In this document: piece by piece, positions 11,155 through 33,422 of the stretch | Layout of the letters: each line of letters opens with the position of its first letter | Numbering within the stretch: position 1 is the first letter of the stretch | From: Comamonadaceae bacterium | Lineage (GTDB): Bacteria > Pseudomonadota > Gammaproteobacteria > Burkholderiales > Burkholderiaceae_C | Reading direction: 5' to 3' | NCBI GenBank assembly: GCA_947372425.1 | Contig: CANBTQ010000001.1 | Span: forward strand, 1 to 48,587 | DNA length: 48,587 nucleotides | Made by a program: the position numbers and the translations under genes | Notes under the pieces: generated by a model | What the model saw: only the letters and a program-made list of their open reading frames with translations | The model's database searches: none | Told to the model about the DNA's origin: nothing

Positions 11155-11187
11155 GTTCCGTCTTTTCAATCAATAACAGGCGGGCTC

Positions 11188-12178: not shown

Positions 12179-12192
12179 GATGGCTCTCCGCA

Positions 12193-12260
12193 GGGCCGTC
12201 CCAAGGAGAGCAAAGCCCTCTCGGGGGGCAGTGAGTACACGCAGTGACGAATATGGGGGC
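12193..12260. repeat. Dispersed ~68-bp REP-like element, copy 2
   Basis: GGGCCGTCCCAAGG...CCCTCTCGGGGGGC...ACACGCAGTG...GGGGGC, lying between ccmF and ccmG. Confidence 0.7.
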
Positions 12261-14213: not shown

Positions 14214-14215
14214 GT

Positions 14216-14671: not shown

Positions 14672-14677
14672 GTTTGT

Positions 14678-14848
14678 TTAACCTTGTTCATCTTCCAGAT
14701 CACCAATCGCGCGCAAGGCGGCACGGTGCCGGCGCGCTGCCAGCACCGGCTCCAGCAGCATCCAGGCTGCCGTCACCCCGTACGAACCCCACACATACAA
14801 GCCATAGCCACCCATGGCAAAAAAATCACTCGCACTGTTCCAGACCAT
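14678..14848 (-). CDS. ccmD: Heme exporter protein CcmD
   Basis: MVWNSASDFFAMGGYGLYVWGSYG; 56 aa between ccmC and ccmE; GGAG RBS. Confidence 0.92.
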   Translation of the reverse strand: MVWNSASDFFAMGGYGLYVWGSYGVTAAWMLLEPVLAARRHRAALRAIGDLEDEQG

Positions 14849-14858
14849 GTCGCTCCCC

Positions 14859-17118: not shown

Positions 17119-18564
17119 TTAAAGCCCGGTCCAGGCATACCAGGGCCCGTCAATTGAGCCTGGTTGTTGCCAAATGGACATGTACACCTGCTTGCCATAG
17201 AAGAACGGCATGCCCCAGGCAAAGGTTTTGGTATCCGCCACATAGCTCGCTCCGGCGTTGGCGGTGCTCCTGGCATTGACCGCACCACCCAAGTCACTGA
17301 AAGCGGTATTGTTGGTCAACGATAGCCGTGCATAGCTGGCGATCTGGAAGGCCACCGCTACAGGTGGATTGGCGGAGAGGTCGCCATCCGACAGCATGGC
17401 ACTCAGATTCGGCAGGGTACTGGCGGGGCAGTACCAGTAATTGGCGACCGTTAGGGCCGACGTCTGGTTCAGGTTGTCACAAGGCGGGACAGAGGCATCA
17501 TAAAAAAATATGCCATTGGTACCCGTGTCCAGGTAACTGTTCGAAAAAATATGCCCGTTGAATTGGGTATGGATACTGAGGTACGAGTCGCTGGAGGTAT
17601 CGGCAACACCCAAGAACACCTTTTGAGCGCCTGGCGGCAGATTGCTTCCATCAACACCCAACACCAACTCGCCCAAAGCCGATTGCGCGCCAGGGTTGTT
17701 CACTGGGATCGCAGGCATTTTCAAAAGCACCCCGTTGTTATAGGGGGCAGACAAGGCGGCAACAGGATTGAAAACTTGCAATGCCCGTGAAATCGGCGTG
17801 AGACTGCAAGTCGCGGAGTCCGTCGCCGCAACTGGGCAGGCGTAGTAGAGCGCGGACGACCCCGGTGGGTCTGTAGCGGTCACATGGTAGCTGCCTTGCT
17901 CGCAATAGAGTCCGCAATCCAAGGTGGTTGAGCCTATACCCAGTACGCCATTGGCGCCCAGGTCGCCGGCAGATGCCAGGATGTTGGATGATTGCGGTGG
18001 TGTTGAGTCCGTGACGGAGTTGCAGCCCGCCGTCGGGCTCAGCGCCGACTGGTCATCAATCAGTTGCACTGCCACCGGACTTTCGGTTCCTTGCTGACCC
18101 AGCCAGACATCCGCTCCGGCCAGGGGTCCCCAGAGCCCCCCAATGACAAAAGGCAAGCATTCCCAAACGTTTTCAGTGGCCGAGACGGTAATGGGTGGCA
18201 AATTCAGCGACTTCACCTTGCTGGCGAGCACGCGTAAACCAACCGACCCCGTATCCACCAGCACATGGTCAATCGTTACGCATTGCAGTGGGTCTGTACG
18301 CAGACCACCCGGGACACAAACGGTCACATCAGCGAACAGCGAATTCGTGCTGGCAGTTCCAAAACCTTGTGGGCCAAGGGCGTCCACGCTGACACGCAGG
18401 TTGTTGCCCGTCTGGATAAAGGATGTGGCAACGGCATCGTTCAGCAACTGGCAGTCGACATTGTTACAGCGCAGTGCAGTGGTGCTGGAGTCGCCGCCAC
18501 CTCCGCACGACATCAATAGCAAGGCCCAAAAAAATACGCCGAACAGTCGAAAGACACAATGCAC
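17119..18564 (-). CDS. DUF3443-like lipoprotein with two Asp-Thr-Gly motifs (pepsin-like aspartic protease fold, putative)
   Basis: Lipobox-like LLLMSC-GGGG; VTVCVPG...IDHVLVDTGSVGLRV and YLDTGTNG; FAWGMPFFYGK; GTG start at 18564 inferred. Confidence 0.75.
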   Translation of the reverse strand: MHCVFRLFGVFFWALLLMSCGGGGDSSTTALRCNNVDCQLLNDAVATSFIQTGNNLRVSVDALGPQGFGTASTNSLFADVTVCVPGGLRTDPLQCVTIDHVLVDTGSVGLRVLASKVKSLNLPPITVSATENVWECLPFVIGGLWGPLAGADVWLGQQGTESPVAVQLIDDQSALSPTAGCNSVTDSTPPQSSNILASAGDLGANGVLGIGSTTLDCGLYCEQGSYHVTATDPPGSSALYYACPVAATDSATCSLTPISRALQVFNPVAALSAPYNNGVLLKMPAIPVNNPGAQSALGELVLGVDGSNLPPGAQKVFLGVADTSSDSYLSIHTQFNGHIFSNSYLDTGTNGIFFYDASVPPCDNLNQTSALTVANYWYCPASTLPNLSAMLSDGDLSANPPVAVAFQIASYARLSLTNNTAFSDLGGAVNARSTANAGASYVADTKTFAWGMPFFYGKQVYMSIWQQPGSIDGPWYAWTGL

Positions 18565-18571: not shown

Positions 18572-19036
18572 CTACCCCAGACCAATGGTTTGCAGATTGA
18601 TACCCGGCGGCAACAGAGAGCGGCGGTACGCAAAACCGCTATACACACTCATGTGCCCCGATGATTGCACCACCAAGTCGCTCCCTTGGTGCAGAAACTG
18701 CCGCTGCATGCCACCGTGCCGGGCCGCATCGTGCGCGGCGCCGGTGTAAGCGGCGTAGGAACGGCCCAGCAAGCTCGACAAGTCGGGCTTGTACAAGGTG
18801 TGCCAAGTTACCGCAAAAACCTTCCCGTTGCCGGTGACGTACTGTGTGATGCGTGATCCATCGGCACCCTGGAGTTCATGCAGCGTGTACTGCGTCGCAT
18901 GCGCCAGGGAGTGGGTTGCACGCATACGCAGGCGATCGCCAACGATGGAGCTTTCGTTTTCCCCCAACCCGGCCCAAGCCGACGACACACCCAGCAGGAC
19001 CAGCGCCAGCAGACACCGGCGTCTACTGAAAGTCAT
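18572..19036 (-). CDS. DUF2844-like secreted protein
   Basis: Signal peptide ending AWA|GLG; VFAVTW...PDLSSLLG.Y, VVQSSGHM..YSG.AY; adjacent to its usual partner DUF3443. Confidence 0.75.
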   Translation of the reverse strand: MTFSRRRCLLALVLLGVSSAWAGLGENESSIVGDRLRMRATHSLAHATQYTLHELQGADGSRITQYVTGNGKVFAVTWHTLYKPDLSSLLGRSYAAYTGAAHDAARHGGMQRQFLHQGSDLVVQSSGHMSVYSGFAYRRSLLPPGINLQTIGLG

Positions 19037-21539
19037 ACCGGTAGCCCAGGTAGAAGAAGTACGACTCGCTGGTCTCGTGGTTGGTGGGGCCATCGGTTTG
19101 CGAGGTTTCGTAAATGCCCTCGGCCATCACGTTGGCCCGGTCCGACAGCTTGTAGGAAACGCGCAGTCCCGGTGAGATGCGGCTGACCTTGGTCTGGGTG
19201 TTGTCGGTCTGGGTGTAGTAGCGGATGGACGGCTCCAGGCTCATCTTGTCACCCATGAAGCCGGTCAAATTGTTGTAGCCCAGTTGGGTGCCGTTCATGG
19301 TGTCACTGGTCACCTGGCTGATATTGAAGCCGCTGATGTCGCGCCCGGAATACAGGTTGGAGCCCGTGAGCTGGAACGACACGTTGTACTGCGCGCCGCT
19401 GGCCGGTTGCGCCTGGAAGTTGCCCACCGCCGGCAAGGCGCCCACTTCACTGTAATGCAGGTCCATGGAGCCCTGCCATTTGGCCGACAGCGCCCGCGAA
19501 AAACTGACCATGGCCTGCTTGGCCTGTGCCGCCGTGGCCAGTGCCGAGCGGTGTGCGCAATCCAGCGCCGACATGGACGGGCCGCATTGCAGCGTGGTGC
19601 GCAAGGGGTCGCCCAGGGCCGGGTTGAGCCGGTCCAGCAGGGAGCTGATCGAGGTGCTGCCGGACGAAATCAAGGCATCGCTGAGCTGCAGCGAAGGCGC
19701 TTTGCGGTCATCGATCAGCGTGGTGATGGTCGTGTCATACGGGCCCTGGAAGGAACCTTGCACGGTCAATGCATTGATCTCGTTGAAATTGATGTCGTAG
19801 TCCATCTGGGTGAACATGGACAGCGCCTCACCGAAGTAACGGACCTCGGTGCCAATGGCCCGCCGGTCCGAGTAACCCTCGGTGGTCTGCTCCACCAGTG
19901 ACATGCTGCCGCCCCAGTGTTCAAACAGGTTGTCGGCTTCCAGCATGACACCGGCCATGGACTGCTGCGGCGCATTGACCAGGGTGTTGGCTGGCACGCC
20001 CAGCATGGCATCCACCTTGTAATGCTCGGCCATCGGCATGGCCATGGACACCCCATCAAAGAGGCCGAACAGCGAACCGCCGATGGCCGACTGGCGCCCG
20101 ACACGGAAGTCCGTCCGGCTCTTGATGTCCCGGTAATCCACATAGGCGGCGCTGATCAGACCTTGTGTGGTGGAGTTCAGCGCACTGGCAGTCGCCAGGT
20201 TGTCGGAGTGCGAACCGCGCATCACCACTTTGGTGATGGATTCATCGGTTTCAAAACGCCCGGTGGCATCCCAGCTGGAAACCAGCACCGACTGGTTGGT
20301 GCGGGTCAGGGTGTTCTGGTCGATGCCGGTGGCAATGCTGACCAGCGAATCGGTCTTGGTCTGGCCGCCGTAATAGTATTGCGACACGCTGCCCGTGGCG
20401 CTCAGCCGCTTCTTGTCCGGCTTCAGGCCGGTCGCACCGGCCTGGACCACATTGGTGCCGGCTCCCAGCGCCAACAGCCGCTGCTCCACATGCGCTACCG
20501 CCTCACCATCGGGGTACAGCCGCAGATAGAGCTGGTATTCGGAACGGGCTTTGGCGGGGTTGTTCAGCGCCTCCCATGCCATACCGATCAGCTCCTGCGC
20601 AGCCGGTGTAAACGGGTTGGGTGGCAGCATCAAGGCCTTGTTGGTGATATCCACCGCGTCCTGGTAGCGGCGCTCATTGAAAGCCGCCCGGGCCTTAGCC
20701 AACAGGTCGGCGCCCTGTCCGTCCACATCCGACACGTTCACTTCCACCTGGGGCTGCGGGCCGGGCACGGCCGGCGCCGCGGCAACGGCCTCGGGTGCGC
20801 TAACCGGTGCCGCCAACTGCAGGGAATCGGCCATGGTCATCACACCGGCAGCGGGGAAACTGGCGCGTGCGCGCTGGCGTACCGTCTCGGCGTCTTTCTC
20901 GCTCTTGAAGAAGCCCATTACCAGGTCTACGCTCTTGACGCCGCCGCGCACACTGTTCTGGGTATAGACGTCATAGTTCTGGAACGCGGCCGGAATGCGG
21001 GGCATCTGCGCCGCCTGCTCCGGGCTGGCAGACTGCAGCACCACCACAAAGTTGCGGTCCAGCGCCGCGTCCGCGGGTTCAGGCAGGGCATCGGCCACGG
21101 ACAGATCGCCCTCGGCCCGGTTCTTGAACACCAGGTCAATCACGCGGGAGCCCGGGCCCTGGCGCACCTGCAGCAGCATCTTCTCGCTCAGGCGCACGGT
21201 CAGCAACTTGGTCAGCGCCTTCGGTGCCGGGGTGTAGTTCAGGTCAATGCGCGGGCGTCCGGCATCGGCGCCCAGGCGTTTGCCTTCTTCTATGGTCTGG
21301 CTCAGCACCACCTCTTCGGCGGAGATCATCTGAAAGCTCAGCTGCGCCAGATCGGTGGCAGTGCCAGCCGCCGGCGCCTGGCGCAGGTAGCGCACATTGG
21401 CGGCAAAGGTGATGCGGGCAATCGTAGCCCCGCCGTCCTGCACCCAGTCCAGGCTCTCTATGGTTTGTGCTGCGGCCAGTTGCGCAAGCAGGGCCAGCGC
21501 GGCCCCTGCCAGCCAGGCAATGCGTGGAGATGTTTTCAC
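19023..21539 (-). CDS. Outer-membrane beta-barrel (porin of a PCC3-like conduit) with N-terminal periplasmic SPOR/TPR-like region
   Basis: Signal peptide; helical repeat region (AQELIGMAWE, EYQLYLRLYP); C-terminal ~450 aa of amphipathic strands ending YLGYRYDFQ; GTG start 1 nt after the giant cytochrome stop. Confidence 0.82.
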   Translation of the reverse strand: MKTSPRIAWLAGAALALLAQLAAAQTIESLDWVQDGGATIARITFAANVRYLRQAPAAGTATDLAQLSFQMISAEEVVLSQTIEEGKRLGADAGRPRIDLNYTPAPKALTKLLTVRLSEKMLLQVRQGPGSRVIDLVFKNRAEGDLSVADALPEPADAALDRNFVVVLQSASPEQAAQMPRIPAAFQNYDVYTQNSVRGGVKSVDLVMGFFKSEKDAETVRQRARASFPAAGVMTMADSLQLAAPVSAPEAVAAAPAVPGPQPQVEVNVSDVDGQGADLLAKARAAFNERRYQDAVDITNKALMLPPNPFTPAAQELIGMAWEALNNPAKARSEYQLYLRLYPDGEAVAHVEQRLLALGAGTNVVQAGATGLKPDKKRLSATGSVSQYYYGGQTKTDSLVSIATGIDQNTLTRTNQSVLVSSWDATGRFETDESITKVVMRGSHSDNLATASALNSTTQGLISAAYVDYRDIKSRTDFRVGRQSAIGGSLFGLFDGVSMAMPMAEHYKVDAMLGVPANTLVNAPQQSMAGVMLEADNLFEHWGGSMSLVEQTTEGYSDRRAIGTEVRYFGEALSMFTQMDYDINFNEINALTVQGSFQGPYDTTITTLIDDRKAPSLQLSDALISSGSTSISSLLDRLNPALGDPLRTTLQCGPSMSALDCAHRSALATAAQAKQAMVSFSRALSAKWQGSMDLHYSEVGALPAVGNFQAQPASGAQYNVSFQLTGSNLYSGRDISGFNISQVTSDTMNGTQLGYNNLTGFMGDKMSLEPSIRYYTQTDNTQTKVSRISPGLRVSYKLSDRANVMAEGIYETSQTDGPTNHETSESYFFYLGYRYDFQ

Positions 21540-21540: not shown

Positions 21541-24500
21541 TCAAGGTCCCACCGGTATTGGCTTGGTTCTGGTTAGCCCACGCAATTGACGCCGTATCAA
21601 TTCACCATTGGTGACGTGGCAGCTGATGCAGGTCAGCTTATCCGGGCTGGCAACATACAAAGGCGAAATATGGTGGTAATTTGCCGGCAACCAGCTCATA
21701 TTCTTGTGGCAGTTGTCACACGAACGTGTGGTATTGAAATGCCCTGCCGGCCGGCCGGAGGCATTCATGCCGTTGTGGCAAGCCTGGCAGGTGTTGGCCG
21801 AAACGCCATTGTGGTTGAACTGCGCCGGCAACCAGGTGGTGGGACGGTGGCAGGTGTCACACGAGGTGCCAACCATCAAATGGCGCGCTGGCATGCCAGA
21901 GGCACTCTTGCCATCATGGCAGGTCTTGCATTTGCCGGCCTCGACGCCCTTGTGGTCGTAGCTGTTGCCCAGGCTTCCCCGGCTCAATTTTCCGCCTTGC
22001 GTATTGGGACGAATCAGGCTCATGTCGGGGTTGACGTGGGCCGAACGCATGACGGGCTTTAACAAGCTTCTGTGGTTATGGAATCCACTCGCATAGCTGT
22101 GGCAGTTGCCGCCGTCGCACTCGTTGGGAATCTTTTGCTTTGTACTGGTATGTTTGCTGGGCGTGCGCGTTTCAAAACCCTTGACATTGGTCCACGCCAG
22201 TTTGTCCTCATGGCATTGCGAACACAGCATGCCCGCGGTCTTCGCGTTGGCATGACCCGCACTGCCCATGGTGGTATTGGCGAACGTCGACGTACTGCTG
22301 TGGCACGCATCACAACTGAGCACTGCGGTACCTGTTTTGGTGGCTGTGGGCACGTGCGTTATCGTGGCTGTGGTGACGGGTCCTAATCCGGTTGTGATCA
22401 TCGGCTGATACGTGATGGCGGCTGAACTGCAATCCGTATTGGACTGGGTTTTACAGCCCGCAAATGGAGCTGTTCCGCTGGTGCCACCAGCGCCGATGGT
22501 GTGGCACGTATTGCAGGATTGCGCTCCAGCGGCTGGTGCCGTATAGGACGCGGGAACAGCACTGATGCCCTTGTGAATTCCCGCTACCGACAGAACGCTG
22601 GATGAGGCGTAAGAATAATCGCCCGACGTTGCTGACGTGACATGGCAATCGGCGCAACTCGCGTTCGTGGTTGGCATGTGTCCTGGCGGTTTACCAGCAG
22701 CAATAAAGGAAGTGGTGCTGCTACCGTGGCACGACGTGCAGTTCCCGCCATCCAATGAAGACGTACCGGTGTGCTTGGCGTCGGCATATCCAAACGGGGT
22801 GGCGGCAGAACCCGGTCGGGTCTGGAATCCGGTGTACTGTGTGGTGAGCACCGACAGGTTCAAAACGCCTGGGCTCGGCTTGTAATAGGTGCCCATGCCC
22901 AACCATTGGGCACCACGCTCATGGCAGTCGGTGCAACTAAGCGTTCCGAGGTTGCTGTGAATAGTCGAATTGTCCACAGGCGCCGGACTTGCAAACAGCG
23001 AACCGGTGCTCGTCACGCCCACCAAGCCCGAAGGAATATTTTTCGTGTGGCAGGCGGCGCAGGCTACGGCGTAGGGAATATGCGTCGTGGCTGAAGGCGT
23101 AGGGCTTGATTTTGGTATCGCCACAATGGCAGTAACGCCCTTAAACGTACTGCCGGTGATTTTGTCACCATGGCACGCTTCGCAGGCTCCGATACTGGTG
23201 TGGTCGAACTTGCCGCCCGCAAACGTACCTCCGGTCACTGGCGTCACCAAAGGTCCACCTTTGTAGACGTGGCACACATCACATTTGTTGATGTTGCCGT
23301 ACGGGATATGCACGATGCCATCGGTGATGGGCGACTTGATGATGTAGGCAGGAATCGCGTTTGCGCCACTGCCAGACGCAGCGATTGACATGTAGCTCGC
23401 ATTGGTCTCGCTGTGGCACTGCTCGCAGTTGCTGGTGGTGGACTGCGCGTACTGGTGAATATTGGCAATGCTTGGGCGCGGCAGCGCGAAATTGATCGAA
23501 CTGCTGACATAACCGCCACTGCCGTTGGACGCCAAGTTGGTATGGCAGTTCTGGCATTGCGCCGTGGCACTGTACGGAATGTGGTTGGCATTCTTGTCTA
23601 CGGCCGAGAACGATTCCGTGCTGCCATGGCAGCCCGCGCACTCAGCACTACCACCCGGGTGGTTTCCATCGGTAATGGAGTTGCCACCACCGGTGCTGGT
23701 GGGCCGCGTCTGGAAGCCCTTGTACTGAACCGGTGGCGTGCTGGCAGGCTGCAAAGTGGTGAAGTTGCGCGGATACAGGCTCAGGTCCAGCCAGACCTTG
23801 CCGGCCTCATGGCAAGCGGCGCAAGCACCACTGACACCGGTGTGGATGGAGGGCCCATCCGGTGGCTGCAGACCGTTGTACTTGAACTTGGTAGCACCCA
23901 GCGTGGTGGTGGTGGACACCGCCGGCACCAGGGTGGACGGCATGCTGCCCAGATGGCAGGTCTCACAGGCCGTGCCGCTGTAGGTCAGCGGGATGTGGTC
24001 GTTGGTGCTGGTGCCGGCCGATCCGGCGGGCAGCACGACGATTTTGGTGATGCCCTTGAATGAACTATTGCCAATGTTGCTGCCATGGCAGGTGGCGCAG
24101 TCTTTGGCAATGCCGGCGTGGCTGTACTGACCCGCCGCAAAGGTGGTGCTGGTGTTGCCGATCTTGGACTGGCCAACCGGGACATTCAGGTGGCAGACGC
24201 CGCAGTCGGTTCCCGCCGGGTTGGGCACGTGAATCGGCGACAGAACCGGTGCCGTCATGCTGACCGGCACGATGCCGCCCTGGAAGGTGGTGGGCGTTAC
24301 CCCACTGTGGCAGCTGGCGCAGGAGGCGGTTGCGTTCGCGTGGCTGAAACCGGAATTGCTGAACTTGGCACCGTTTTGTGTGGCAGAGGTCATGCTGCTG
24401 GAGCCGCCCACGTGGCAGTCCGCGCAATCGAGGTTGGCCATGGGGATGTGCACGGGCGTCGTACTACCGTCCGAAGCACCAACCACGGTCATTTTCGACG

Positions 24501-27500
24501 TGCTGTAGTAGGCGGCATTGGCGGCACTGTGGCAATCTGCGCACTTGGCGTTAACCGGTGCATTGGCGTGGGTCAATGCATTCGATGGCCAGACCCCGTA
24601 GTCGGGGTTGGTGTGGCAAGTGCCACAGGTCACGGACGCCGTGGGGATGTGGTTCAAGGGCTTGGCGGTGGCCTCCCAGACGGTGAAGCCGCTGTGGCAA
24701 TCGGAGCAGTCGCGGTCGACCGGGTGCAGGCTGTCTTGCACGCTGTTGTTGGTCTTGGTGCCATAGGGTCGGGTCTGGAAACCATGGTAGGGCGCAACCT
24801 GGGTTGCCAGATACGGCGCCATTCCCATCCAGTCCATGCCCTTCTCGTGGCAGGTATTGCAACTGCCCGACACGCCGGCATGGATGGCATCGGTCTTGGG
24901 AGGCTGCAACAGGAAGCCGCTGTTGGGCGCTGCATGCGGCGCATTGCCCGGCACCAGCGCGGTGGGCATGGCATTGCGGTGGCAGTCCTCGCAGGTGGTG
25001 GAACTCGGGATGTGCGAAGTGGCTCCCGCCGTAATGGACGGCGGCATCATCACGATGCTGGTTATGCCCTGGAAGGAAGCACCCGTGATGGCGGGGCCGT
25101 GGCACTCGGCGCAATTGCTGGTCATGTTGCTGCCGTGGCTGAAGGACGAACCGCTGAACTTGGCCGTGAGTGGCATCGGCAACGTCAGGCTGCTGGTGTG
25201 GCAGCTTTCACAGGTCTGGCTGCGCATGGGCACGTGCTTGGCCGCATCGGGGCCGACCACCGCGCGCGTGGCGTTACTGCTGTAGGTGTCCGCATTGGCG
25301 CGACTGTGGCAGTCGGCACAGGCACTGTTGGTTGGCAGGTTGGCATGAATTGCCGTGATGGTCGGTGGGGTGCCCCAGGCTGTGTGACAGGCGGCGCAAT
25401 TGGCGGAGCCGTTGTACGGAATGTGCGGCGTGGGCAGCGACGCGGCGCCAAAGGCATCGGTGTTGCCATGGCACTGCGAGCAGTCGCCCTTGTCGGGATG
25501 CCCGATGTCCAGCATCGAGGTGCCCGTTGCGTTGGCAATCATCGGACGGGTATGGAAACCGGTGTACAGGTAGTTGGGGTTGTTGGTCTGCACACTGGTC
25601 TGGTTGCGCGGATAAGCCGAGGCCACACCCACCCACGACAGGCCTGCCTCGTGGCAGCTGGCGCAGGTGCCGGTCACGTTGCTATGGATCGTGGGGGAAT
25701 CGGGTGGCGATACGTTAAAGCCACTGCCGGGAACCGGGTGTGCTGCCGTCACCGACAACAGGCCAGCCGGAATGCTGCCGCTGCCGCTATGGCAGTTTTC
25801 GCAGGCTGCCGTCGTTGGGATGTGCGCGTTGGCGCCTGAGGTCTGCATCACGACCAGGCTGCTCACCCCCTTGAAACTGCTATTGGTAATGGTGGCGCCG
25901 TGACAGGCGGCGCAACCCGTCGTGAAATCCGTGTGGATGAACTGACCGCCTGAAAACGAAGGACTGCCGGTGTAGCCAGTCGATGGCACCAAACCGGGTG
26001 GAATGCTGTTGGCGTGGCAGATTTCGCAGCCCACATTGCTGCTGGTCGGAATGTGGCGGGGCGTCAGACCGTAAATTGATTTGGGAGTGACACCGTAAAA
26101 AGTTCCGGCAGCGACACCGGAGCCATGGCAGTCGCCGCAATTGGTCGTAATGCCCGTGTGAATGAAGGCCGAGCCGCTGAACTTGGAGCCTTCGGGCACG
26201 CTGCCGGCGGGCATGCTGGTGCCTGCGCCCATGTGGCAGGCCGAGCAGTCCAGACCACCCAGGGGAATGTGGTTGTTAAAACTGCTGTCTTGTGTCTGGA
26301 TCGGCTTCAGCGTCGTGGTGGCCTTGAACTGCCCGACATTGGCCGAGTCGTGGCACTGCTGGCAGTTGCTGGTGGTCGATTGAATATAGGTATGGATCAC
26401 ACCCACCGTCGGCGCCGTGCCGAACTTGACGTGGCAGGTTGCACACGCGGTATTCGCGACGTAAGGGATATGGCCGTTCGGTTGGCTGGGCTGACCAAAG
26501 GCCAGCGTGTCACCGTGGCACAGCGAGCAGTCGCCCGAACTCTGGTCCGGGTGACCCCCGTCGGCCACCGAGTAACCCGACGCGTTCAACAACGGCCGGG
26601 TCTGGAAGCCGTAGTAGTTGCCGGTGCCGGACGTGGTACGGGGCGGGCTGAGCAGGTTCATGCCCATCCAGCTCAGACCGGCTTCGTGGCAGCTGTTGCA
26701 GCTGACTTTGGCGTCGTTGTGAATCGTGACCGAATCGGGCGCCGGTGCCTGGAACAGGCTGCCCGGTACGTTGCGGGTAGACGAGGCCGGGATGAGCGCG
26801 GTGGGCTTGCTCGACGCGTGGCAGTTTTCGCAGGTCGTCGAGGTGGGCAGGTGTCCGCTGGGCGCGGCGGTCGATGGCATCACGATGATGGGGTTGATGC
26901 CATAGAAGCTGCTGTTCGAAATATTCGGGCCATGGCAGGCCTCGCAGCCGGTATTCGCCGCCGGGTGCAGGAACTGTGCGTTGGCAAAGGTGGTCATGCC
27001 CAGAGCGGGAACCAGGCCCGTGGGCGCGCCATTGGTGTGGCAGGTGTCGCAGGCGGCGCCGGCGGTGGTGGGCACGTGCGCCGGTGCCAGGTTGCCAATC
27101 GTCTTGGGGTAGACACCCTTGAAGGTGCTGGCGGTCACCGTCGCGCCATGGCAGGTCGCACACGATACGGTGCTGCTGGCATGGTTGAACAGGGAACCAC
27201 TGAACTTGGCGCCATCGGGCACCAGGGCGCTTGCAACGCTGGAGCCGGCACCGACGTGACAACCCTCACAACCCAGACCGCCCATCGAAATGTGCAGGTC
27301 CGGCACCGTGACAACGGCCGTCTTCATGCCGGTGCTGTAGAAGGCTGCCTTGGCGGTACTGTGGCATTGGTCGCAACCGACGATGGACTGGCTGTACAGG
27401 TGGATGGCCGACACCTTGGGCAGGCTGCTGAAGTTGCCGTGGCAGGCGGCACAGCCCACGTTGGCGTCAAACGGAATGTGGTTGTCGGGCTTGACCGGTG

Positions 27501-30500
27501 CGCCGAACGCAATGGTGTTGCCATGGCACTGCGAGCATTCGCCGGTGCCCAGGTGGGCCGCATCGTCCACCGAGGTAATCGTTCCGCCGCTGACGGGGCG
27601 GGTGTGGAAGCCGGTGTACAGGTCGGTGGCGACGCCGGTGTAGCTGGGCGGGTTGCGACGGTAGTCGGCCATGCCCATGCCCATCCAGGTCATGCCGGCT
27701 TCGTGGCAGTTGTTGCAAGTGGTCACGCCGCTGTGGATGGCGATGGAGGTGGGCGCCGGGTTCTGGAACAGGCTGCCCGGAACATTGTGGATGGCCGTCA
27801 CCGACGAAAGCCCGGTTGGCACCACACCAACGTGGCAGCTGTCACAGGTGGCCGACGTCGGCATATGGGAGCTCGTGCCTGCCGGCGAGGTGGCGGGCAT
27901 CAGCACGATGCTGGAAATGCCGTAGTAGCTGGCACCGCCGGCGTGGCAGGTGGCGCAGCTGACGTTGACACCCGTGTGGCTAAAGGCGGAGCCGCTGAAC
28001 CTGGAGGCTTCCGTCCACACGCCGGGCGCCAGACTGGTGCCCGCGCCAACGTGGCAGGTTTCGCAACCGGCGCTACCCATGGGCACGTGGTTGCCGATGG
28101 GCGGCACGATGGGACGCAAGGTGGTGGTGGGCGCAAATTCTTTGGCGGCGGCAGCGCTGTGGCACTGCTGGCAGTTGCCGCTCGGATTTTGAATATAGGC
28201 GTGGATATTGGCGATGGTGGGCGCCGTACCAAAGCTGACGTGGCAGGCACCGCATGCCGTGTTGGCTACATAAGGGATGTGGTGTGCCGGTGCAACCGGC
28301 GTACTGAAGTAGTCAAAGCTCAGGTGGCAGGCGGAACAATCGGTCGGGCCGGGCGGGTGCGGCGAAAGGTCGGCAACGGAATACCCGCCGCCACCCGGTG
28401 TGGGCCGGGTATGGAAGCCGGTGTAGGACGCATTGGCGATGTATTGGGTGGGTGCGCGGGTGTAGCCCGACACACCGATCCAGTTCATACCGGCCTCGTG
28501 GCAGGTGTTGCAGCTGCCGCTGACGCCACTGTGAATCGCGCCCGGCGTGGGCAGGGGGCTGGAGAACTGGCTGCCCGGCACGCTGTGGGCCAGGGTGACG
28601 GAAATCAAACCCGACGGCGCGGTGTGACAACTCTCGCAGCTGGCCGTGGTGGGCAGGTGCCCGCTGGTGGCAAATGTGGTGGGCCTGACGACCAGGCTGG
28701 TGGCCGACACACCGTAGAAACTGCTTGCACTCACGCTGGCGCCGTGGCAGGCATCGCAACCACTGCTGACGCCCTTGTGGTTGAACTGTCCACCTGCAAA
28801 CGTGTTGGGGGCGGTGCCGCCGCTGAAGGGGATTTGCACTGCCGGCACGCTGGTGTGGCAGTCTTCACAAACCTGCGACGAGGCGATGTGCGAGGGTGCC
28901 AGTCCGATCCGGTTTTTGGGCGTGATACCGGCATAGGTACCGGTCACAACGCCATCGCCGTGGCAAGTCGCGCAGCCGGATTGGATGCCGGTATGCACGA
29001 AGCCCGATTTGCTGAACTTGTCACCGTCAACGACGGTTGCATGCACATCGCTGCCCGGCGCAACGTGGCAGGCATCGCAAGCCTGTCCGTTCATGGCAAT
29101 GTGGTTGGCGGGTGGCGCGGTGATGACGGGCGTCATGGGATACGTGGTGGTATCTCCATGGCACTGCGCACAGGTTGTGCCGGCCCTGGCATTGGCATGG
29201 ATATCGGTCAGCCCGGGCATGACCTTGTAGTCACCGGTCTTGTGGCAGGTGGCACACGCGGCCGTGGCGACGATGGGTATGTGGTTGCTCGGCAGGTTGG
29301 TTGCCAGAAATCCGTCGTTGATGGTGTGGCAGGTGGCGCAATCGCCACCGGTCTGGTGTGCCGGGTCCGCAATCGAATAACCGCCACCGCCAATATTGGG
29401 CCGGGTCTGGAATCCGATATACGGTTGTGCGACCGAGGCGTTCAGGCTGGCCGTTCGCGGGCCGTACAAATCCATGCCGACCCAGGACAAGCCCGCTTCG
29501 TGGCAAGCCGCGCAGCTAACGCTCATGTTCGCATGAATGTCTGCGGACGAGGGCTTGAGCAACTGGAAACCGGTGCCCGGCACGGTGGCGGTGGCATTGG
29601 CTGCCAGCAAGCCGGATGGGGCGGGTTTGTGGCAAGTCTCGCAGGCGGCCGCGGTGGGAATATGTGCAGTCGGGCCGGACCCGCTGCTCGAAGGCATGGG
29701 AATGATGTTGTTGATGCCGAAGAAGCTGAGCGAAGTCCCGTTGCTGCCGTGGCAGCTCGTGCAGCCGGTGCTGACGCCGCCATGGTTGAACTTGGCGTTG
29801 GTGAATTTGGCACTGTTGCCGACCGGGAGCTGCACGCCGCTGCCAGCGACCAGGTGACAGGTTTCGCAGGCCTGGCCATTCATGCCGATATGGTTGTCCG
29901 GCGGGGCCTTGATGGGCGGGACCATATGCGCCGAGCTGTAGGCCGACGCAGCAGCACTGCTATGGCACTGCTGGCAGTTGGTGCTGCTGGAAGGCGCGTT
30001 CTCGTGAATGGCCTGCAGAGTGGGCATCTTCGCGTAGTCGGCGTCGGTGTGGCAATTGGTACAGGAGACCGCCGCGATAGGAATGTGGTTGTTCGGAATC
30101 TTGGGGCCGGTGAACTGGATGGTGGTGTGGCACTTGTCGCAGGCCTGGCCTTGGGCCAGGACGGCCGCATGGGTCGCGTCCGGCGGACTGGTGCGCACGC
30201 CAGGATGCGGGTTGGCGGGGCTGTGGCAGTTCAGGCAGGCAAGGGTTTTGACCGCCACGTGGTTGAAGGTGAGCGCGGCATCGGCAAACTGCGCCATATT
30301 GGCCTGGTGGCAGCTTTCGCAAGGGGCGTTGCCGGTCGGGATATGGTTGACCGGCATGACCGAGAAGGTGGCACGCGGGTTGTTCCAGCCGTGGCAGGAA
30401 GCGCAGTCCTTGGGTGTGCCCTTGAACACGCCTTTCAGGTGACAGGTTTCGCAGCGCACATTCTGGTGCTGTGCATTCAGGACAAAACCGGTGCTGCTGT

Positions 30501-30651
30501 GGTCAAAGTCGTTACCCGATTGCTGGGCCTGGGCCAACTGCATGGCCCCCAGTTGCATCAGGGCCATGGCAAGCAAAGCCAATCCGCCCATCCAGAGGGG
30601 CTTCAGTGCACGCCTGCGCAGCAACGCAAGCAGATTTTTTAGCTTGGCCAT
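21541..30651 (-). CDS. Giant multiheme c-type cytochrome (3036 aa, about 79 heme-binding motifs), probably extracellular
   Basis: Hand count of 78 CxxCH plus one CX4CH; signal peptide ending AQA; GAGG RBS; Ser/Thr/Gly/Pro-rich. Confidence 0.95.
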   Translation of the reverse strand: MAKLKNLLALLRRRALKPLWMGGLALLAMALMQLGAMQLAQAQQSGNDFDHSSTGFVLNAQHQNVRCETCHLKGVFKGTPKDCASCHGWNNPRATFSVMPVNHIPTGNAPCESCHQANMAQFADAALTFNHVAVKTLACLNCHSPANPHPGVRTSPPDATHAAVLAQGQACDKCHTTIQFTGPKIPNNHIPIAAVSCTNCHTDADYAKMPTLQAIHENAPSSSTNCQQCHSSAAASAYSSAHMVPPIKAPPDNHIGMNGQACETCHLVAGSGVQLPVGNSAKFTNAKFNHGGVSTGCTSCHGSNGTSLSFFGINNIIPMPSSSGSGPTAHIPTAAACETCHKPAPSGLLAANATATVPGTGFQLLKPSSADIHANMSVSCAACHEAGLSWVGMDLYGPRTASLNASVAQPYIGFQTRPNIGGGGYSIADPAHQTGGDCATCHTINDGFLATNLPSNHIPIVATAACATCHKTGDYKVMPGLTDIHANARAGTTCAQCHGDTTTYPMTPVITAPPANHIAMNGQACDACHVAPGSDVHATVVDGDKFSKSGFVHTGIQSGCATCHGDGVVTGTYAGITPKNRIGLAPSHIASSQVCEDCHTSVPAVQIPFSGGTAPNTFAGGQFNHKGVSSGCDACHGASVSASSFYGVSATSLVVRPTTFATSGHLPTTASCESCHTAPSGLISVTLAHSVPGSQFSSPLPTPGAIHSGVSGSCNTCHEAGMNWIGVSGYTRAPTQYIANASYTGFHTRPTPGGGGYSVADLSPHPPGPTDCSACHLSFDYFSTPVAPAHHIPYVANTACGACHVSFGTAPTIANIHAYIQNPSGNCQQCHSAAAAKEFAPTTTLRPIVPPIGNHVPMGSAGCETCHVGAGTSLAPGVWTEASRFSGSAFSHTGVNVSCATCHAGGASYYGISSIVLMPATSPAGTSSHMPTSATCDSCHVGVVPTGLSSVTAIHNVPGSLFQNPAPTSIAIHSGVTTCNNCHEAGMTWMGMGMADYRRNPPSYTGVATDLYTGFHTRPVSGGTITSVDDAAHLGTGECSQCHGNTIAFGAPVKPDNHIPFDANVGCAACHGNFSSLPKVSAIHLYSQSIVGCDQCHSTAKAAFYSTGMKTAVVTVPDLHISMGGLGCEGCHVGAGSSVASALVPDGAKFSGSLFNHASSTVSCATCHGATVTASTFKGVYPKTIGNLAPAHVPTTAGAACDTCHTNGAPTGLVPALGMTTFANAQFLHPAANTGCEACHGPNISNSSFYGINPIIVMPSTAAPSGHLPTSTTCENCHASSKPTALIPASSTRNVPGSLFQAPAPDSVTIHNDAKVSCNSCHEAGLSWMGMNLLSPPRTTSGTGNYYGFQTRPLLNASGYSVADGGHPDQSSGDCSLCHGDTLAFGQPSQPNGHIPYVANTACATCHVKFGTAPTVGVIHTYIQSTTSNCQQCHDSANVGQFKATTTLKPIQTQDSSFNNHIPLGGLDCSACHMGAGTSMPAGSVPEGSKFSGSAFIHTGITTNCGDCHGSGVAAGTFYGVTPKSIYGLTPRHIPTSSNVGCEICHANSIPPGLVPSTGYTGSPSFSGGQFIHTDFTTGCAACHGATITNSSFKGVSSLVVMQTSGANAHIPTTAACENCHSGSGSIPAGLLSVTAAHPVPGSGFNVSPPDSPTIHSNVTGTCASCHEAGLSWVGVASAYPRNQTSVQTNNPNYLYTGFHTRPMIANATGTSMLDIGHPDKGDCSQCHGNTDAFGAASLPTPHIPYNGSANCAACHTAWGTPPTITAIHANLPTNSACADCHSRANADTYSSNATRAVVGPDAAKHVPMRSQTCESCHTSSLTLPMPLTAKFSGSSFSHGSNMTSNCAECHGPAITGASFQGITSIVMMPPSITAGATSHIPSSTTCEDCHRNAMPTALVPGNAPHAAPNSGFLLQPPKTDAIHAGVSGSCNTCHEKGMDWMGMAPYLATQVAPYHGFQTRPYGTKTNNSVQDSLHPVDRDCSDCHSGFTVWEATAKPLNHIPTASVTCGTCHTNPDYGVWPSNALTHANAPVNAKCADCHSAANAAYYSTSKMTVVGASDGSTTPVHIPMANLDCADCHVGGSSSMTSATQNGAKFSNSGFSHANATASCASCHSGVTPTTFQGGIVPVSMTAPVLSPIHVPNPAGTDCGVCHLNVPVGQSKIGNTSTTFAAGQYSHAGIAKDCATCHGSNIGNSSFKGITKIVVLPAGSAGTSTNDHIPLTYSGTACETCHLGSMPSTLVPAVSTTTTLGATKFKYNGLQPPDGPSIHTGVSGACAACHEAGKVWLDLSLYPRNFTTLQPASTPPVQYKGFQTRPTSTGGGNSITDGNHPGGSAECAGCHGSTESFSAVDKNANHIPYSATAQCQNCHTNLASNGSGGYVSSSINFALPRPSIANIHQYAQSTTSNCEQCHSETNASYMSIAASGSGANAIPAYIIKSPITDGIVHIPYGNINKCDVCHVYKGGPLVTPVTGGTFAGGKFDHTSIGACEACHGDKITGSTFKGVTAIVAIPKSSPTPSATTHIPYAVACAACHTKNIPSGLVGVTSTGSLFASPAPVDNSTIHSNLGTLSCTDCHERGAQWLGMGTYYKPSPGVLNLSVLTTQYTGFQTRPGSAATPFGYADAKHTGTSSLDGGNCTSCHGSSTTSFIAAGKPPGHMPTTNASCADCHVTSATSGDYSYASSSVLSVAGIHKGISAVPASYTAPAAGAQSCNTCHTIGAGGTSGTAPFAGCKTQSNTDCSSAAITYQPMITTGLGPVTTATITHVPTATKTGTAVLSCDACHSSTSTFANTTMGSAGHANAKTAGMLCSQCHEDKLAWTNVKGFETRTPSKHTSTKQKIPNECDGGNCHSYASGFHNHRSLLKPVMRSAHVNPDMSLIRPNTQGGKLSRGSLGNSYDHKGVEAGKCKTCHDGKSASGMPARHLMVGTSCDTCHRPTTWLPAQFNHNGVSANTCQACHNGMNASGRPAGHFNTTRSCDNCHKNMSWLPANYHHISPLYVASPDKLTCISCHVTNGELIRRQLRGLTRTKPIPVGP

Positions 30652-30685: not shown

Positions 30686-32515
30686 TCATTTTTCCGACCC
30701 CTGACCTGCGCGACTTTTTACTTTTTTCCAGCTGTCCACCTGGTGGCACTGCTCACAGCGGGGGCCGAAACCACCGTTGTGCACATCATCCTTGCGGTGG
30801 CAGGCCACACAGGCCGTGCCGACGGGTGCCGCATCCTTGTCGGGCGGCGCCACCTGTTTGTGGCAACTCGCACAGGCCACCTTGGCGTGCGAACTCTCCA
30901 ACCGGTATTTGGTGCGGGTGTCGTGGTCAAACGACCAGGTAGTCCAGGCCCGCGCGTTGTGGCAGGACTCGCAGCGCACGCCGAACACCTGCTTGTGCTT
31001 GTCGTCCTTCTTGTGGCAGCTGTAGCAATCGCGCGCGGCGTCCTTGTAACGCAGGCTGCTGTGGCAGGCCTTGCACTCGGTGAGGATGTGCTTGCCGGTG
31101 AGCGGGAAGCGCGACTTGCCGTGGTTGAAGCTGGTGCCCTTCCAGGCCTTGTCGTTGTGGCAGCTCTCGCATTTGTCGCCCAGCTGGGTTTCGTGCTTGT
31201 CGTCCTTCTTGTGGCAGCTGATGCACAGCAGCGCGGTGTTGCGCATGCTGCTCAGGTCCTTGTGGCAGGCCACGCATTTCACGCTGGGAGCGGCATGGGC
31301 GTTGCGCAGCTGGAACTTGGTCTTGTCGTGCTGGAAGCGGCCTTCGGTTTTCTTCCAGTCCTGTTCGTTGTGGCAGTCGGCACAGGTGGTGCCCAGGTTG
31401 GCCTTGTGCTTGTCGTCCTTCAGGTGGCAACCGATGCAGTCCTTGGGTGCCTCTTTGAACAGCTGGCTCTTGTGGCACTCCTTGCACTCCACCTTGAAGT
31501 GTTTGCCCAGCAGCGGGAAGCTGGTTTTCTCGTGGTCAAACTTGGCCACTTCCTTCCAGTTTTTCTCGGTGTGGCAGGTCACGCAGTTGGTGCCCAGCGA
31601 CTCCTTGTGCTTGTCGTCCTTCTTGTGGCAGGCATAGCACTCCTGCTTGAGCTTGTCCTTGTACAGGTTGCCGGTGTGACAGGCCTTGCACTCGGTGCTG
31701 CTGTGCTTGCCCTTGAGCAGGTATTTGGTGTCCGTGTCGTGGTTGAAGGTGGAGGGCTTCCAGGCCTTGGTGCCGTGGCAGGTCTCGCACTTCTCGCCAT
31801 ACAGGCCCTTGTGGCCCTTTTGCTCGTCGTTCTTCTTGTGGCAGGCGTAGCAATTTTTCGGCGTGTCCTTGTAGACATTGTTCTTGTGGCAGTCCGCGCA
31901 CTTGACGTCCGTGTGCTTGCCGGTGAGGGCGAACTTGGTGGTGTCGTGGTCAAACTTGGCGTCCTTCCAGTCGGACTCGTTGTGGCAGTCGGCGCACTTG
32001 GTGCCCAGGCTGCCCTTGTGTTTGTCGTCCTTCTTGTGGCAGCTGTTGCAGTCCTGCGCCGCTTCGCGGTACTTCTTGCCGCTCACATGGCATTTTTCGC
32101 AGGCCACTTTCTCGTGCTTGCCCTTGAGGCTGTAATCGGTCTTGGCGTTGTGGTCGAACTTCTTCTTGTCAAAGTCGGTGCTTTTGAAGTCGCGGCCCTT
32201 GTGTTCGCTGTGGCAGCTCTTGCAGACAACGGGCTGCTCCAGGTGGCCGTGCATGCCGGTCTTGGCACGCACGTCGGCACCCACGGGTTTGTGGCAGTCC
32301 ATGCACAGGCGGTCCTGCGCCTTGCGGTCGAGTTTGACGTGGCACTGTTTGCAATCGTCCTCGTACTTGGCGTGGTCCTGCATCAGCTTGCCCGGCGCCA
32401 TGATGGACTCAATGCCCTGGGCCTGCGCGCCCGACACCCAGCACAGCAGCAGGCCGCAGGCTATCCACAGCAGGTGCCGGATGGTTTGCAGCAAGGAGGT
32501 GCGGGCGGTTGTCAT
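30686..32515 (-). CDS. Periplasmic multiheme cytochrome c (24 CxxCH, Lys-rich)
   Basis: Hand count of 24 CxxCH: an N-terminal triheme plus seven FDH..F.L.GKH-CxxCH-CxxCH-KKDDKH-CxxCH-W repeats; signal peptide ending AQA. Confidence 0.94.
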   Translation of the reverse strand: MTTARTSLLQTIRHLLWIACGLLLCWVSGAQAQGIESIMAPGKLMQDHAKYEDDCKQCHVKLDRKAQDRLCMDCHKPVGADVRAKTGMHGHLEQPVVCKSCHSEHKGRDFKSTDFDKKKFDHNAKTDYSLKGKHEKVACEKCHVSGKKYREAAQDCNSCHKKDDKHKGSLGTKCADCHNESDWKDAKFDHDTTKFALTGKHTDVKCADCHKNNVYKDTPKNCYACHKKNDEQKGHKGLYGEKCETCHGTKAWKPSTFNHDTDTKYLLKGKHSSTECKACHTGNLYKDKLKQECYACHKKDDKHKESLGTNCVTCHTEKNWKEVAKFDHEKTSFPLLGKHFKVECKECHKSQLFKEAPKDCIGCHLKDDKHKANLGTTCADCHNEQDWKKTEGRFQHDKTKFQLRNAHAAPSVKCVACHKDLSSMRNTALLCISCHKKDDKHETQLGDKCESCHNDKAWKGTSFNHGKSRFPLTGKHILTECKACHSSLRYKDAARDCYSCHKKDDKHKQVFGVRCESCHNARAWTTWSFDHDTRTKYRLESSHAKVACASCHKQVAPPDKDAAPVGTACVACHRKDDVHNGGFGPRCEQCHQVDSWKKVKSRAGQGSEK

Positions 32516-32528: not shown

Positions 32529-33422
32529 TTAGTAGGCGTGGACCGCGTAGATGTGGACCAGGGTGGTCGCGATCAGCACATACACGAAGGGAATGTGGGC
32601 CACATGCCAGAGCGAGAACAAAAACGAGTAGGCCGAGAACTGCGACACCCGGACCACCGAGTTCAGATAGGCGTCCACCGTCTTGCGGGCGCGGCTGCGG
32701 CGGCGCTGCAGATCCTGCTTGCTCCAGTGCTGGCTGGCAGCCATTTGCGGCAGCAGCAGTTCGAGCTCGGCCACGCATTGGCGGTACACCAGGTATTGCC
32801 GCAGGGGCAGCCAGAACACGGCACGGAAATTGGTGGCCCAGCCCTCGGGCGACTCCTGCTCGCGCTGCTCAAAGGCCTTGAGCCGCTGCTCCACGCGCGG
32901 GGCAAAGGCCAGGCGCGAGCGGGCATCTTCCTTGTCCATGCCGGCGTTGCGCATCAGGGTCTGCAGGTCGGTCTGCTCGCCCTGCAAGCCGCGGTTGATG
33001 CGCTGAAAGATAAAGCGTCCCACCACGCCGCTGCCGGCCACGATCAGCATGCTGTAGAGCGCCACCGCGGCATTCAGGGAACCGGTACGGAAGTTGGAGT
33101 GCAGCAGGATCATCAGCGGACCCAGCACGCCCAGCGCAATGTGCAGCCAGAACCAGCCCTTGATGCTGCCCCAGTTGCGGGCAAAGCGCACGTACTTGCG
33201 CAAGGGGTAGCTCAGCAGCACCAGCATCATGACGGCGCCCGTGACACCCACCCAATAGCCGGTGTCGTCCCCGGGCTCAAACAGCGCGAGCTGGCTGATA
33301 CGCCAGGTTCCCCACACCAACAGCGTCAACGTCAGGTAGACCAGCGTATCCCCGCCCAGGAGCTGCAAGGATGACTTGCTTTGCCCCCGGCTTGCCGGCT
33401 CCTTGTCTGCTGCAGTGTTCAT
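32529..33422 (-). CDS. Inner-membrane protein of the PCC3-like conduit (putative b-heme quinol oxidoreductase)
   Basis: TM helices with intramembrane His: WFWLHIALG..ILLHSNF and FSLWHVAHIPF..LVHIYAVH. Confidence 0.75.
   Translation of the reverse strand: MNTAADKEPASRGQSKSSLQLLGGDTLVYLTLTLLVWGTWRISQLALFEPGDDTGYWVGVTGAVMMLVLLSYPLRKYVRFARNWGSIKGWFWLHIALGVLGPLMILLHSNFRTGSLNAAVALYSMLIVAGSGVVGRFIFQRINRGLQGEQTDLQTLMRNAGMDKEDARSRLAFAPRVEQRLKAFEQREQESPEGWATNFRAVFWLPLRQYLVYRQCVAELELLLPQMAASQHWSKQDLQRRRSRARKTVDAYLNSVVRVSQFSAYSFLFSLWHVAHIPFVYVLIATTLVHIYAVHAY

What the first reader, a model, noticed from the sequence alone, without database searches (positions are those of the whole stretch)
21541..30651. 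Giant single-chain cytochrome: 3036 aa, about 79 hemes, a candidate one-polypeptide nanowire
Seen: 78 CxxCH plus one CX4CH by hand count (allow +/-1), roughly one per 38 aa; almost every motif has a spare His a few residues upstream (NHIP, FxH, IH), consistent with bis-His ligation; Sec-type signal peptide and no lipobox or C-terminal TM. This is far above MtrA/MtrC (10 hemes) and above the few-tens range I recall for PCC3 outer cytochromes. Inference: an elongated conductive filament encoded as one protein rather than a polymer like OmcS.
Basis: partly seen in the sequence, partly recalled or inferred. Interest (0 to 1): 0.92.

Follow-up and report, generated by a model that had tools for sequence, protein, structure and literature searches.

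The report
79-heme modular PCC3 conduit cytochrome
A freshwater bacterium encodes one 3,036-residue protein with 79 heme-binding sites, built from repeated seven-heme units, that is the predicted outer arm of the published but untested "PCC3" electron conduit; it is not a record, and it likely carries electrons about 60 nm from the cell surface, probably fed from NAD(P)H by a flavoprotein gene that travels with the cluster.

Summary
The gene is the extracellular cytochrome of a PCC3 cluster (di-heme-b-type membrane protein, 24-heme cytochrome, giant, 22-stranded barrel), followed by ccm genes. It is not exceptional: He et al. 2017 already reported an 85-heme PCC3 member and the wire idea, and 15 of 88 close relatives have more motifs (up to 113). 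Not found in the papers read: the subfamily obeys a strict grammar of seven-heme modules with an optional two-heme insert, and always carries DUF2844 and a pepsin-like DUF3443 (42 of 42 loci), whose paralogues follow type II secretion genes. An Fe-S/FAD NAD(P)H oxidoreductase co-occurs with the membrane protein (11 of 200 genomes both, none with one only), suggesting outward, NAD(P)H-fed transfer; this scan noted that link before on other DNA. A single chain would reach about 60 nm, so it is a surface arm, not an OmcS-like micrometre wire. Heme-chain continuity and expression are untested.

The parts
21541..30651 (-). Giant PCC3-type extracellular multiheme cytochrome, 3036 aa, 79 heme motifs
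   Evidence: homologues
30526..30651 (-). Sec-type signal peptide (about residues 1-42, ends A-Q-A; cleavage site inferred)
   Evidence: sequence; one hydrophobic stretch, no lipobox
29341..30525 (-). N-terminal part: hemes 1-11 (five-heme cap plus a first, six-heme module B-G)
22741..29340 (-). Seven tandem modules of 9,7,9,9,7,9,7 hemes (hemes 12-68, residues 438-2637), 37-52% identical
21541..22740 (-). C-terminal cap: hemes 69-79, with the CX4CH motif, a spare Cys pair (C2733/C2741), five closely spaced hemes and a basic tail; conserved in the subfamily
30686..32515 (-). 24-heme periplasmic-type cytochrome (609 aa, 25 aa per heme, Lys-rich)
   Evidence: 24 motifs in most complete relatives
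32529..33422 (-). PCC3 inner-membrane protein (297 aa) with two WX3HX13H motifs and SGVVG; predicted di-heme b
   Evidence: motif definition from PMC5566968
33627..34025 (-). 132-aa three-helix membrane protein, no Pfam match; seen in two related loci of the genus
34077..35366 (-). Membrane-anchored Fe-S/FAD oxidoreductase (thioredoxin-reductase/FNR type; N-terminal helix, two atypical ferredoxin motifs with Ser and an invariant His in place of the second Cys)
   Evidence: co-occurrence
19023..21539 (-). 838-aa outer-membrane protein: N-terminal periplasmic part with TPR repeats, C-terminal beta-barrel of 22 strands
18572..19036 (-). DUF2844 protein with signal peptide
17119..18540 (-). DUF3443 lipoprotein with two invariant pepsin-like Asp motifs (DTGS, D[ST]G); true start near 18540, not fixed
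9937..16935 (-). Cytochrome c maturation operon ccmA, B, C, E, F, G, H, I (ccmD not tested)

Best explanation
The 79-heme protein is the predicted outer arm of a PCC3 porin-cytochrome conduit, built from tandem seven-heme modules, that likely passes electrons outward from cytoplasmic NAD(P)H to extracellular acceptors such as humic quinones or Fe(III). Shown: motif count, module grammar, gene order, family motifs, co-occurrence. Inferred path: NAD(P)H -> FAD and Fe-S of the anchored oxidoreductase -> two b hemes of the inner-membrane protein (a split ferric-reductase/NOX-like unit, as cytosolic reductase plus MsrQ) -> 24-heme periplasmic cytochrome -> 22-stranded barrel -> giant cytochrome. 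The giant would be made via Sec and the adjacent Ccm system, likely exported by type II secretion with DUF2844/DUF3443 as helpers, and held non-covalently at the barrel. Each heme would be bis-His, the second His coming from the preceding linker. Reach would be about 60 nm and would change in steps of seven hemes by gain or loss of modules. My odds: PCC3 outer cytochrome 0.9; elongated continuous chain 0.65; NAD(P)H-linked input 0.6; outward direction given that 0.8.
For: PCC3 anatomy complete and in published order; same order in Rhodoferax, Rubrivivax and others, and homology to a Sideroxydans-labelled cluster (L089: membrane protein 34%, barrel 33%). Spare His before 78 of 79 motifs. 640 of 648 modules counted in 132 relatives have 7 or 9 hemes; close relative P0017 differs by one seven-heme module. 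Oxidoreductase and membrane protein: both in the same 11 of 200 genomes of the order (9 families), none with one only, all 11 head-to-head 256-409 bp apart; in the genus 16 of the 17 genomes with the membrane protein have it, 0 of 76 others. A distant homologue of the membrane protein is fused to an Fe-S domain (P0220, E 1.8e-6). Precedent: MsrQ receives electrons from a cytosolic NADH oxidoreductase (PMC12525009, abstract). DUF2844 and DUF3443 follow the barrel in 42 of 42 modular loci, 0 and 1 of 16 others; a second pair follows gspF in this genome and in two others. Holders are lake, freshwater, mat and peat metagenomes. The genome also has an Mtr-like cluster (labels from my reading of the sequences), and no RuBisCO or reaction centre was found (77% complete).
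Against: No PCC3 has been tested (bioRxiv 2025.02.27.639646 passages). In Sideroxydans ES-1 proteomes the extracellular PCC3 cytochrome was not detected although its partners were (PMC11429942 passages). The model of residues 44-780 lacks hemes, has pTM 0.41 and gave me no coordinates, so neither shape nor heme spacing is shown. Co-occurrence may reflect one transferred cassette, and three Pelomonas/Roseateles loci lack the oxidoreductase within the stretch held. PCC3 is common in iron oxidisers, which argues for inward flow in some hosts. DUF3443 is also in 13 genomes of the genus without the PCC3 membrane protein, and two of the three secretion-linked loci were chosen because gspK lay near. 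Location outside the cell is assumed from the published model. Expression here is untested.
Confidence: 0.5

Rival explanations
1. Published PCC3 model: the same conduit, but the membrane protein exchanges electrons with the quinone pool, for respiration on external acceptors or for Fe(II) oxidation; the oxidoreductase only serves assembly or redox upkeep.
For: He et al. 2017 propose a quinone-active cytochrome b; PCC3 is frequent in Gallionellaceae and Leptothrix; MsrQ binds ubiquinone.
Against: The oxidoreductase is kept head-to-head with the membrane-protein gene in 11 of 11 genomes across 9 families; the MsrQ abstract says its data contradict ubiquinone as donor; no RuBisCO found in this genome (incomplete genome).
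Confidence: 0.27
2. The giant is mainly an electron store or a broad multivalent surface for dissolved humics, flexible or coiled, not a straight wire.
For: Low pTM (0.41) fits flexible joints; module number varies freely, 44-113 motifs; Hoover et al. 2023 name the capacitor option.
Against: Strict, conserved heme order and conserved caps fit a vectorial chain; AlphaFold models of other PCC3 cytochromes were 'long and mostly linear'. Storage and conduction do not exclude each other.
Confidence: 0.13
3. One reading: a stand-alone conductive filament equal in role to OmcS nanowires, possibly polymerising end to end.
For: Heme density and bis-His pattern; no lipid anchor; single-chain 'nanowire' cytochromes are predicted in Desulfuromonadia (PMC11492766 passages).
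Against: Always encoded beside a barrel and a periplasmic cytochrome (76 of 80 loci hold the barrel); one chain is only about 60 nm (recalled spacing); 78 of 79 hemes have a candidate ligand in their own chain, so no inter-subunit ligation is needed.
Confidence: 0.08
4. Assembly artefact or silent pseudo-giant.
For: The genome is a fragmented assembly (387 contigs); no listed piece spans the whole gene.
Against: Modules 37-52% identical; even depth; intact orthologues of 68-92 motifs in isolates and in a single-contig genome.
Confidence: 0.02

Closest known systems
PCC3 extracellular multiheme cytochrome (He et al. 2017, PMC5566968; Hoover et al. 2023, PMC10734462)
   Same: Four-gene core in the same order; membrane protein of about 300 aa with WX3HX13H twice and SGXXG; 24-heme periplasmic partner; 22-strand barrel (as given for Leptothrix cholodnii); T/S/A/G-rich, repetitive outer cytochrome; 79 hemes lies within the published range (up to 85); 38 aa per heme is at the top of the published 22-39.
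   Different: A distinct subfamily with a fixed seven-heme module and optional two-heme insert; two extra conserved genes (DUF2844, DUF3443); the linked Fe-S/FAD oxidoreductase is not in the published four-gene model.
MtrCAB / MtoAB
   Same: Periplasmic cytochrome, barrel and outer cytochrome as a trans-envelope conduit (works like).
   Different: Not homologous by family cut-offs (NCBIfam scores 96 and 73 bits against cut-offs 209 and 192); 79 and 24 hemes against 10 and 10; no lipobox; barrel only a generic match to MtrB (Z 14.4, rmsd 8.0, rank 24).
OmcS/OmcE/OmcZ cytochrome filaments
   Same: Dense bis-His heme array suited to electron hopping (inferred).
   Different: Those are polymers of small subunits reaching micrometres; this is one chain, tied to a porin cluster; no structural match found.
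Ferric-reductase/NOX superfamily, MsrQ with its cytosolic reductase
   Same: Two HX13H motifs in a membrane protein plus a cytosolic FAD/NAD(P)H enzyme (works like, inferred).
   Different: No Pfam or PDB sequence match for the membrane protein; the reductase is of the thioredoxin-reductase fold with its own ferredoxin; the output is a heme chain.
Other giant multiheme cytochromes (113 motifs cited in PMC11492766; over 100 in PMC11495043; up to 116 in bioRxiv 10.64898/2026.05.27.727921)
   Same: Single chains with very many CxxCH motifs, known from genomes only.
   Different: Larger than this protein; other lineages.

Membership tests
PCC3 | Gene order: inner-membrane protein, periplasmic MHC, extracellular MHC, porin | tested here: met
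   definition
PCC3 | Inner-membrane protein of about 300 aa with two WX3HX13H motifs and SGXXG | tested here: met
   297 aa; motifs at 90, 272 and 131; conserved in 47 rows
PCC3 | Five membrane helices in that protein | tested here: inconclusive
   Simple hydropathy scan found four above threshold; a fifth near residues 25-45 falls below it
PCC3 | Periplasmic MHC of 21-27 hemes | tested here: met
   24 CxxCH, signal peptide; range
PCC3 | Outer-membrane beta-barrel porin | tested here: met
   Model pLDDT 92.7, pTM 0.84, 22 strands by my count of the DSSP list; matches outer-membrane barrels, Z up to 17.2
PCC3 | Extracellular MHC: repeats, rich in T/S/A/G, 22-39 aa per heme | tested here: met
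   A+S+T+G 43%, 38 aa per heme, modules
PCC3 | Homology to clusters of founding taxa | tested here: met
   L089 (labelled Sideroxydans lithotrophicus, a MAG, not strain ES-1): membrane protein 34%, barrel 33%, 24- and 12-heme genes between
PCC3 | Extracellular location and electron transfer | not testable with these tools
   Untested for any PCC3
MtrC/OmcA or MtrA families | Ten hemes, family HMM above cut-off, lipoprotein (MtrC) | tested here: not met
OmcS-type polymeric nanowire | Small subunit that polymerises | tested here: not met
   3036-aa single chain
OmcS-type polymeric nanowire | Continuous heme chain with close spacing | tested here: inconclusive
   Heme-free model, pTM 0.41, no coordinates returned
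Pepsin-like aspartic proteases (DUF3443 gene) | Two catalytic D[ST]G motifs in a pepsin fold | tested here: inconclusive
   Both Asp motifs invariant in 37 rows; Atlas hits to pepsin-like clusters only 0.78-0.84, a lead; fold not modelled

The most novel reading that the evidence does not exclude
A NOX-like enzyme with a built-in cable: NAD(P)H is oxidised inside the cell and the electrons leave through 105 hemes to the tip of a single-chain wire, whose length (about 30-110 hemes) evolves in seven-heme steps and which has its own type II secretion helpers (DUF2844 and a pepsin-like DUF3443). PCC3 would then be a quinone-independent reductase of humics or minerals in lake Burkholderiales, not an iron oxidase.
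Probability: 0.3. Interest if true: 0.8.

Novelty: new variant of a known kind. Interest (0 to 1): 0.5.

Why it matters
The largest solved single-chain cytochrome has 16 hemes (bioRxiv 2025.05.29.656830 passage); nothing is known of how 70-110-heme chains fold, leave the cell or conduct. A regular seven-heme module makes the giant tractable: one or two modules can be expressed and solved, and natural length variants test distance against rate. Cultured carriers exist (Rhodoferax lacus IMCC26218, 68 motifs; Rubrivivax sp. A210, 92). If the input is NAD(P)H, PCC3 should not be read as a marker of iron oxidation, and lake bacteria would have an overlooked route to reduce humic matter. As a record-size claim it does not matter.

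Tried and rejected
Record heme number: rejected. Assembly duplication: rejected. Fold searches with the model of residues 44-780: no Foldseek match at E 0.001 or better, best MtrA at E 4.1, none with Z 2 or more; a heme-free coil model makes this weak, so no claim of a new fold. Complex of the membrane protein and the oxidoreductase, with two hemes and FAD: no verdict, 0.30 against a mark of 0.32; not used either way. Fusion search for the membrane protein among longer proteins: 1 hit among 4378 candidates, with cNMP and Fe-S domains, not the flavoprotein. Relatives longer than 5313 aa could not be searched, so the subfamily's upper limit is open. First locus scan with the barrel alone found nothing. 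PDB sequence searches for DUF3443 found nothing and for the membrane protein only chance hits. GspK is in 89 of 94 genomes of the genus, so it does not discriminate. Paper searches: DUF3443 and DUF2844 0 papers each; PCC3 with ferredoxin/NADPH returned no microbial PCC3 paper among the 15 listed; Hoover 2023 has no 'thioredoxin reductase', 'pyridine nucleotide' or 'FAD-dependent'. The rows of He 2017 Supplementary Table 4 were not readable (legend only) and could hold members of this subfamily; bioRxiv supplements were closed.
Full report
Observation. The minus-strand ORF 21541-30651 encodes 3036 aa with 78 CxxCH and one CX4CH. Shuffles give 0.5 motifs on average (maximum 5 in 1000); 78 of 79 motifs have a spare His in the preceding linker, 72 of them 6-10 residues upstream. 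There is a signal peptide, no lipobox and no other membrane segment. The count is not an assembly effect: modules are 37-52% identical, DNA repeats are short and diverged, contigs of run X1 cover 8.5 of 9.1 kb at the depth of the flanks, three further studies hold scattered pieces, and a single-contig genome of the genus has an intact 72-motif orthologue. Against: X1 may be the source sample, and no listed piece spans the gene.

What it is. On the same strand lie an Fe-S/FAD oxidoreductase, a small membrane protein, a 297-aa membrane protein, a 24-heme cytochrome, the giant, an 838-aa TPR/barrel protein, DUF2844, DUF3443 and the ccm operon. The 297-aa protein has both WX3HX13H motifs and SGXXG, which He et al. 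2017 define for the PCC3 inner-membrane protein (PMC5566968; passages and sections 15 and 16 read). Residues 378-838 of the 838-aa protein fold as a barrel of 22 strands (pLDDT 92.7) that matches outer-membrane barrels. A scan of species genomes with the giant's C-terminal cap gave 90 relatives, 80 kept; 76 of the 80 loci hold the barrel and 45 the membrane protein (many end before it); one is labelled Sideroxydans lithotrophicus. In seven loci the membrane protein and 24-heme gene lie downstream instead. The host is likely a Rhodoferax: R. lacus gives 72-73% for the membrane protein and barrel and 91% for CcmF; holders are freshwater, lake, mat and peat metagenomes.

It is not a record. He et al. 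report a median of 34, and 63 and 85 hemes, for PCC3 outer cytochromes and propose molecular wires. Gallionellaceae have 10-35 (PMC10734462 passages) and the Leptothrix group 10-57 (PMC13386937 passages). Other papers cite 113, over 100 and 116 motifs (passages). My search (1669-5313 aa only) gave 178 hits, 120 listed; I took the top 88, above a drop from 726 to 463 bits. They have 44-113 CxxCH (median 65.5); 15 exceed 78 and 12 exceed 85; some are fragments.

Module grammar. Linkers fall into recurring types. With profiles built from this protein, close relatives read as N-cap, (A B C D E F G)n, C-cap, with an optional two-heme insert. Of 648 full modules counted in 132 proteins, 490 have 7 hemes, 150 have 9 and 8 have other numbers. 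This protein is 11 + (9,7,9,9,7,9,7) + 11. Its relative P0017 (72 motifs) matches six modules in order at 61-93% and lacks one; four larger relatives (91-113 CxxCH) have modules 66-75% alike within a chain, a sign of recent expansion. He et al. mention repeats in general; I did not find this unit in the passages read. AlphaFold2 on residues 44-780 (71 rows, no hemes) gave pLDDT 76.7 and pTM 0.41, mostly coil with short helices, and no match among solved structures. Local folds are thus predictable, but overall shape and heme spacing are not shown. With a recalled rise of 7-8.5 A per heme, a straight chain would be 55-67 nm.

Input side. The upstream gene encodes an N-terminal membrane helix, two atypical ferredoxin motifs and a thioredoxin-reductase/FNR-type FAD and NAD(P)H part (best PDB match YpdA/Bdr, E 1e-39). 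In 93 other genomes of the genus, 17 have the PCC3 membrane protein at 49% identity or more (two as contig-end fragments), 16 have the oxidoreductase, and all 16 are among the 17. In an even draw of 200 genomes of the order, the same 11 (9 families) have both, none has one only, and all 11 pairs are head-to-head 256-409 bp apart. Kin and co-transfer weaken this as statistics, and three Pelomonas/Roseateles loci lack the gene in the stretch held. He et al. likened the membrane protein to the ferric-reductase domain but proposed quinone coupling. The simplest reading is a split ferric-reductase-like unit; MsrQ is a precedent, taking electrons from a cytosolic NADH oxidoreductase (PMC12525009, abstract). 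By inference, flow from NAD(P)H outward is favoured by both redox potential and membrane potential but conserves little energy, so it would be a redox valve or a tool to reduce humics and metals; flow from Fe(II) inward to NAD(P)+ would be uphill on both counts. I reached this link before consulting earlier notes; four of them report it on other genomes, so it is not new to this scan, and those notes are not independent evidence.

Export side. A 79-heme holo-protein without a lipid anchor must cross the outer membrane after Ccm maturation. Of the 80 loci, 58 hold the barrel and 3.5 kb beyond it; DUF2844 and DUF3443 follow in 42 of 42 with the module and in 0 and 1 of 16 without (my own sequences as queries may miss distant copies). 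A second DUF2844-DUF3443 pair follows gspF of a type II secretion operon in this genome and in two others (3 of 3 loci cut out, two chosen because gspK lay near). DUF3443 is a lipoprotein with two invariant pepsin-like Asp motifs (Atlas lead). I infer helpers for secretion or processing. Against: DUF3443 also occurs in 13 genomes of the genus without this membrane protein. Neither domain name occurs in the library searched.

Physiology. Contig C26 carries a nine-heme membrane cytochrome, a decaheme, a 729-aa putative barrel and a multiheme lipoprotein, which I read as CbcL- and MtrABC-like (labels recalled, not scanned). RuBisCO and reaction-centre genes were not found in this 77%-complete genome. 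This fits a heterotroph that reduces external acceptors; humic lakes are rich in such genes (PMC6344600 passages). No PCC3 has been tested; both copies are transcribed in Sideroxydans CL21, while ES-1 proteomes lacked the outer cytochrome. Expression of this gene was not tested. PMC13322032 and PMC11475568 (passages) did not bear on this family beyond noting other porin-cytochrome clusters.

Verdict. A real giant cytochrome of a known, untested kind, neither a record nor an OmcS equivalent. It defines a modular subfamily with two extra conserved genes and cultured carriers: new variant of a known kind, interest 0.5.

Noticed in passing
proteins P0093, P0094, P0107, P0118: Distant relatives with 131, 124, 148 and 115 CX2-4CH motifs in one chain (129, 120, 134, 115 strict CxxCH); three exceed the 113-116 cited as the highest in the papers read. 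P0093 and P0094 end like the second PCC3 type seen in L024, L025 and L007. Context not fetched.
   Followed up: partly
L116:8481-16828 (G000:C32), L115:4949-18262, L117:4044-14442: DUF2844-DUF3443 pair directly after gspF in type II secretion operons; suggests these unstudied families are secretion accessories.
   Followed up: partly
window 17119-18540: DUF3443 looks like a pepsin-type aspartic protease lipoprotein (invariant DTGS and D[ST]G, many conserved Cys).
   Followed up: partly
G000:C26:9857-18328 and C113:2067-4139: Second conduit: nine-heme membrane cytochrome, decaheme, barrel, multiheme lipoprotein cut at the contig end; a paralogous eight-heme membrane cytochrome on C113.
   Followed up: partly
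window 34077-35366: Both ferredoxin motifs of the oxidoreductase lack the second Cys (Ser in one, invariant His in the other), hinting at unusual or higher-potential clusters.
   Followed up: no
L030, L031, L036, L038, L039, L041, L042: Rearranged cluster: membrane protein and 24-heme gene lie downstream of DUF3443.
   Followed up: no
L053 and L073 (24-heme gene), L081 (giant): Cytochrome genes split over several frames; sequencing error or decay not resolved.
   Followed up: no
P0220: 824-aa fusion of cNMP-binding domains, an Fe-S dicluster domain and a PCC3/PCC4-like membrane domain with both HX13H motifs.
   Followed up: partly
window 26125-30642 (+): 1505-codon open frame antisense to the giant; no Pfam match and codon pattern of a shadow frame.
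   Followed up: yes
window 35457-41827 (-): Upstream housekeeping genes: glcF, glcE, gluconolactonase, aldose epimerase, amtB, P-II; glcF also lies beside the cluster in several relatives.
   Followed up: no
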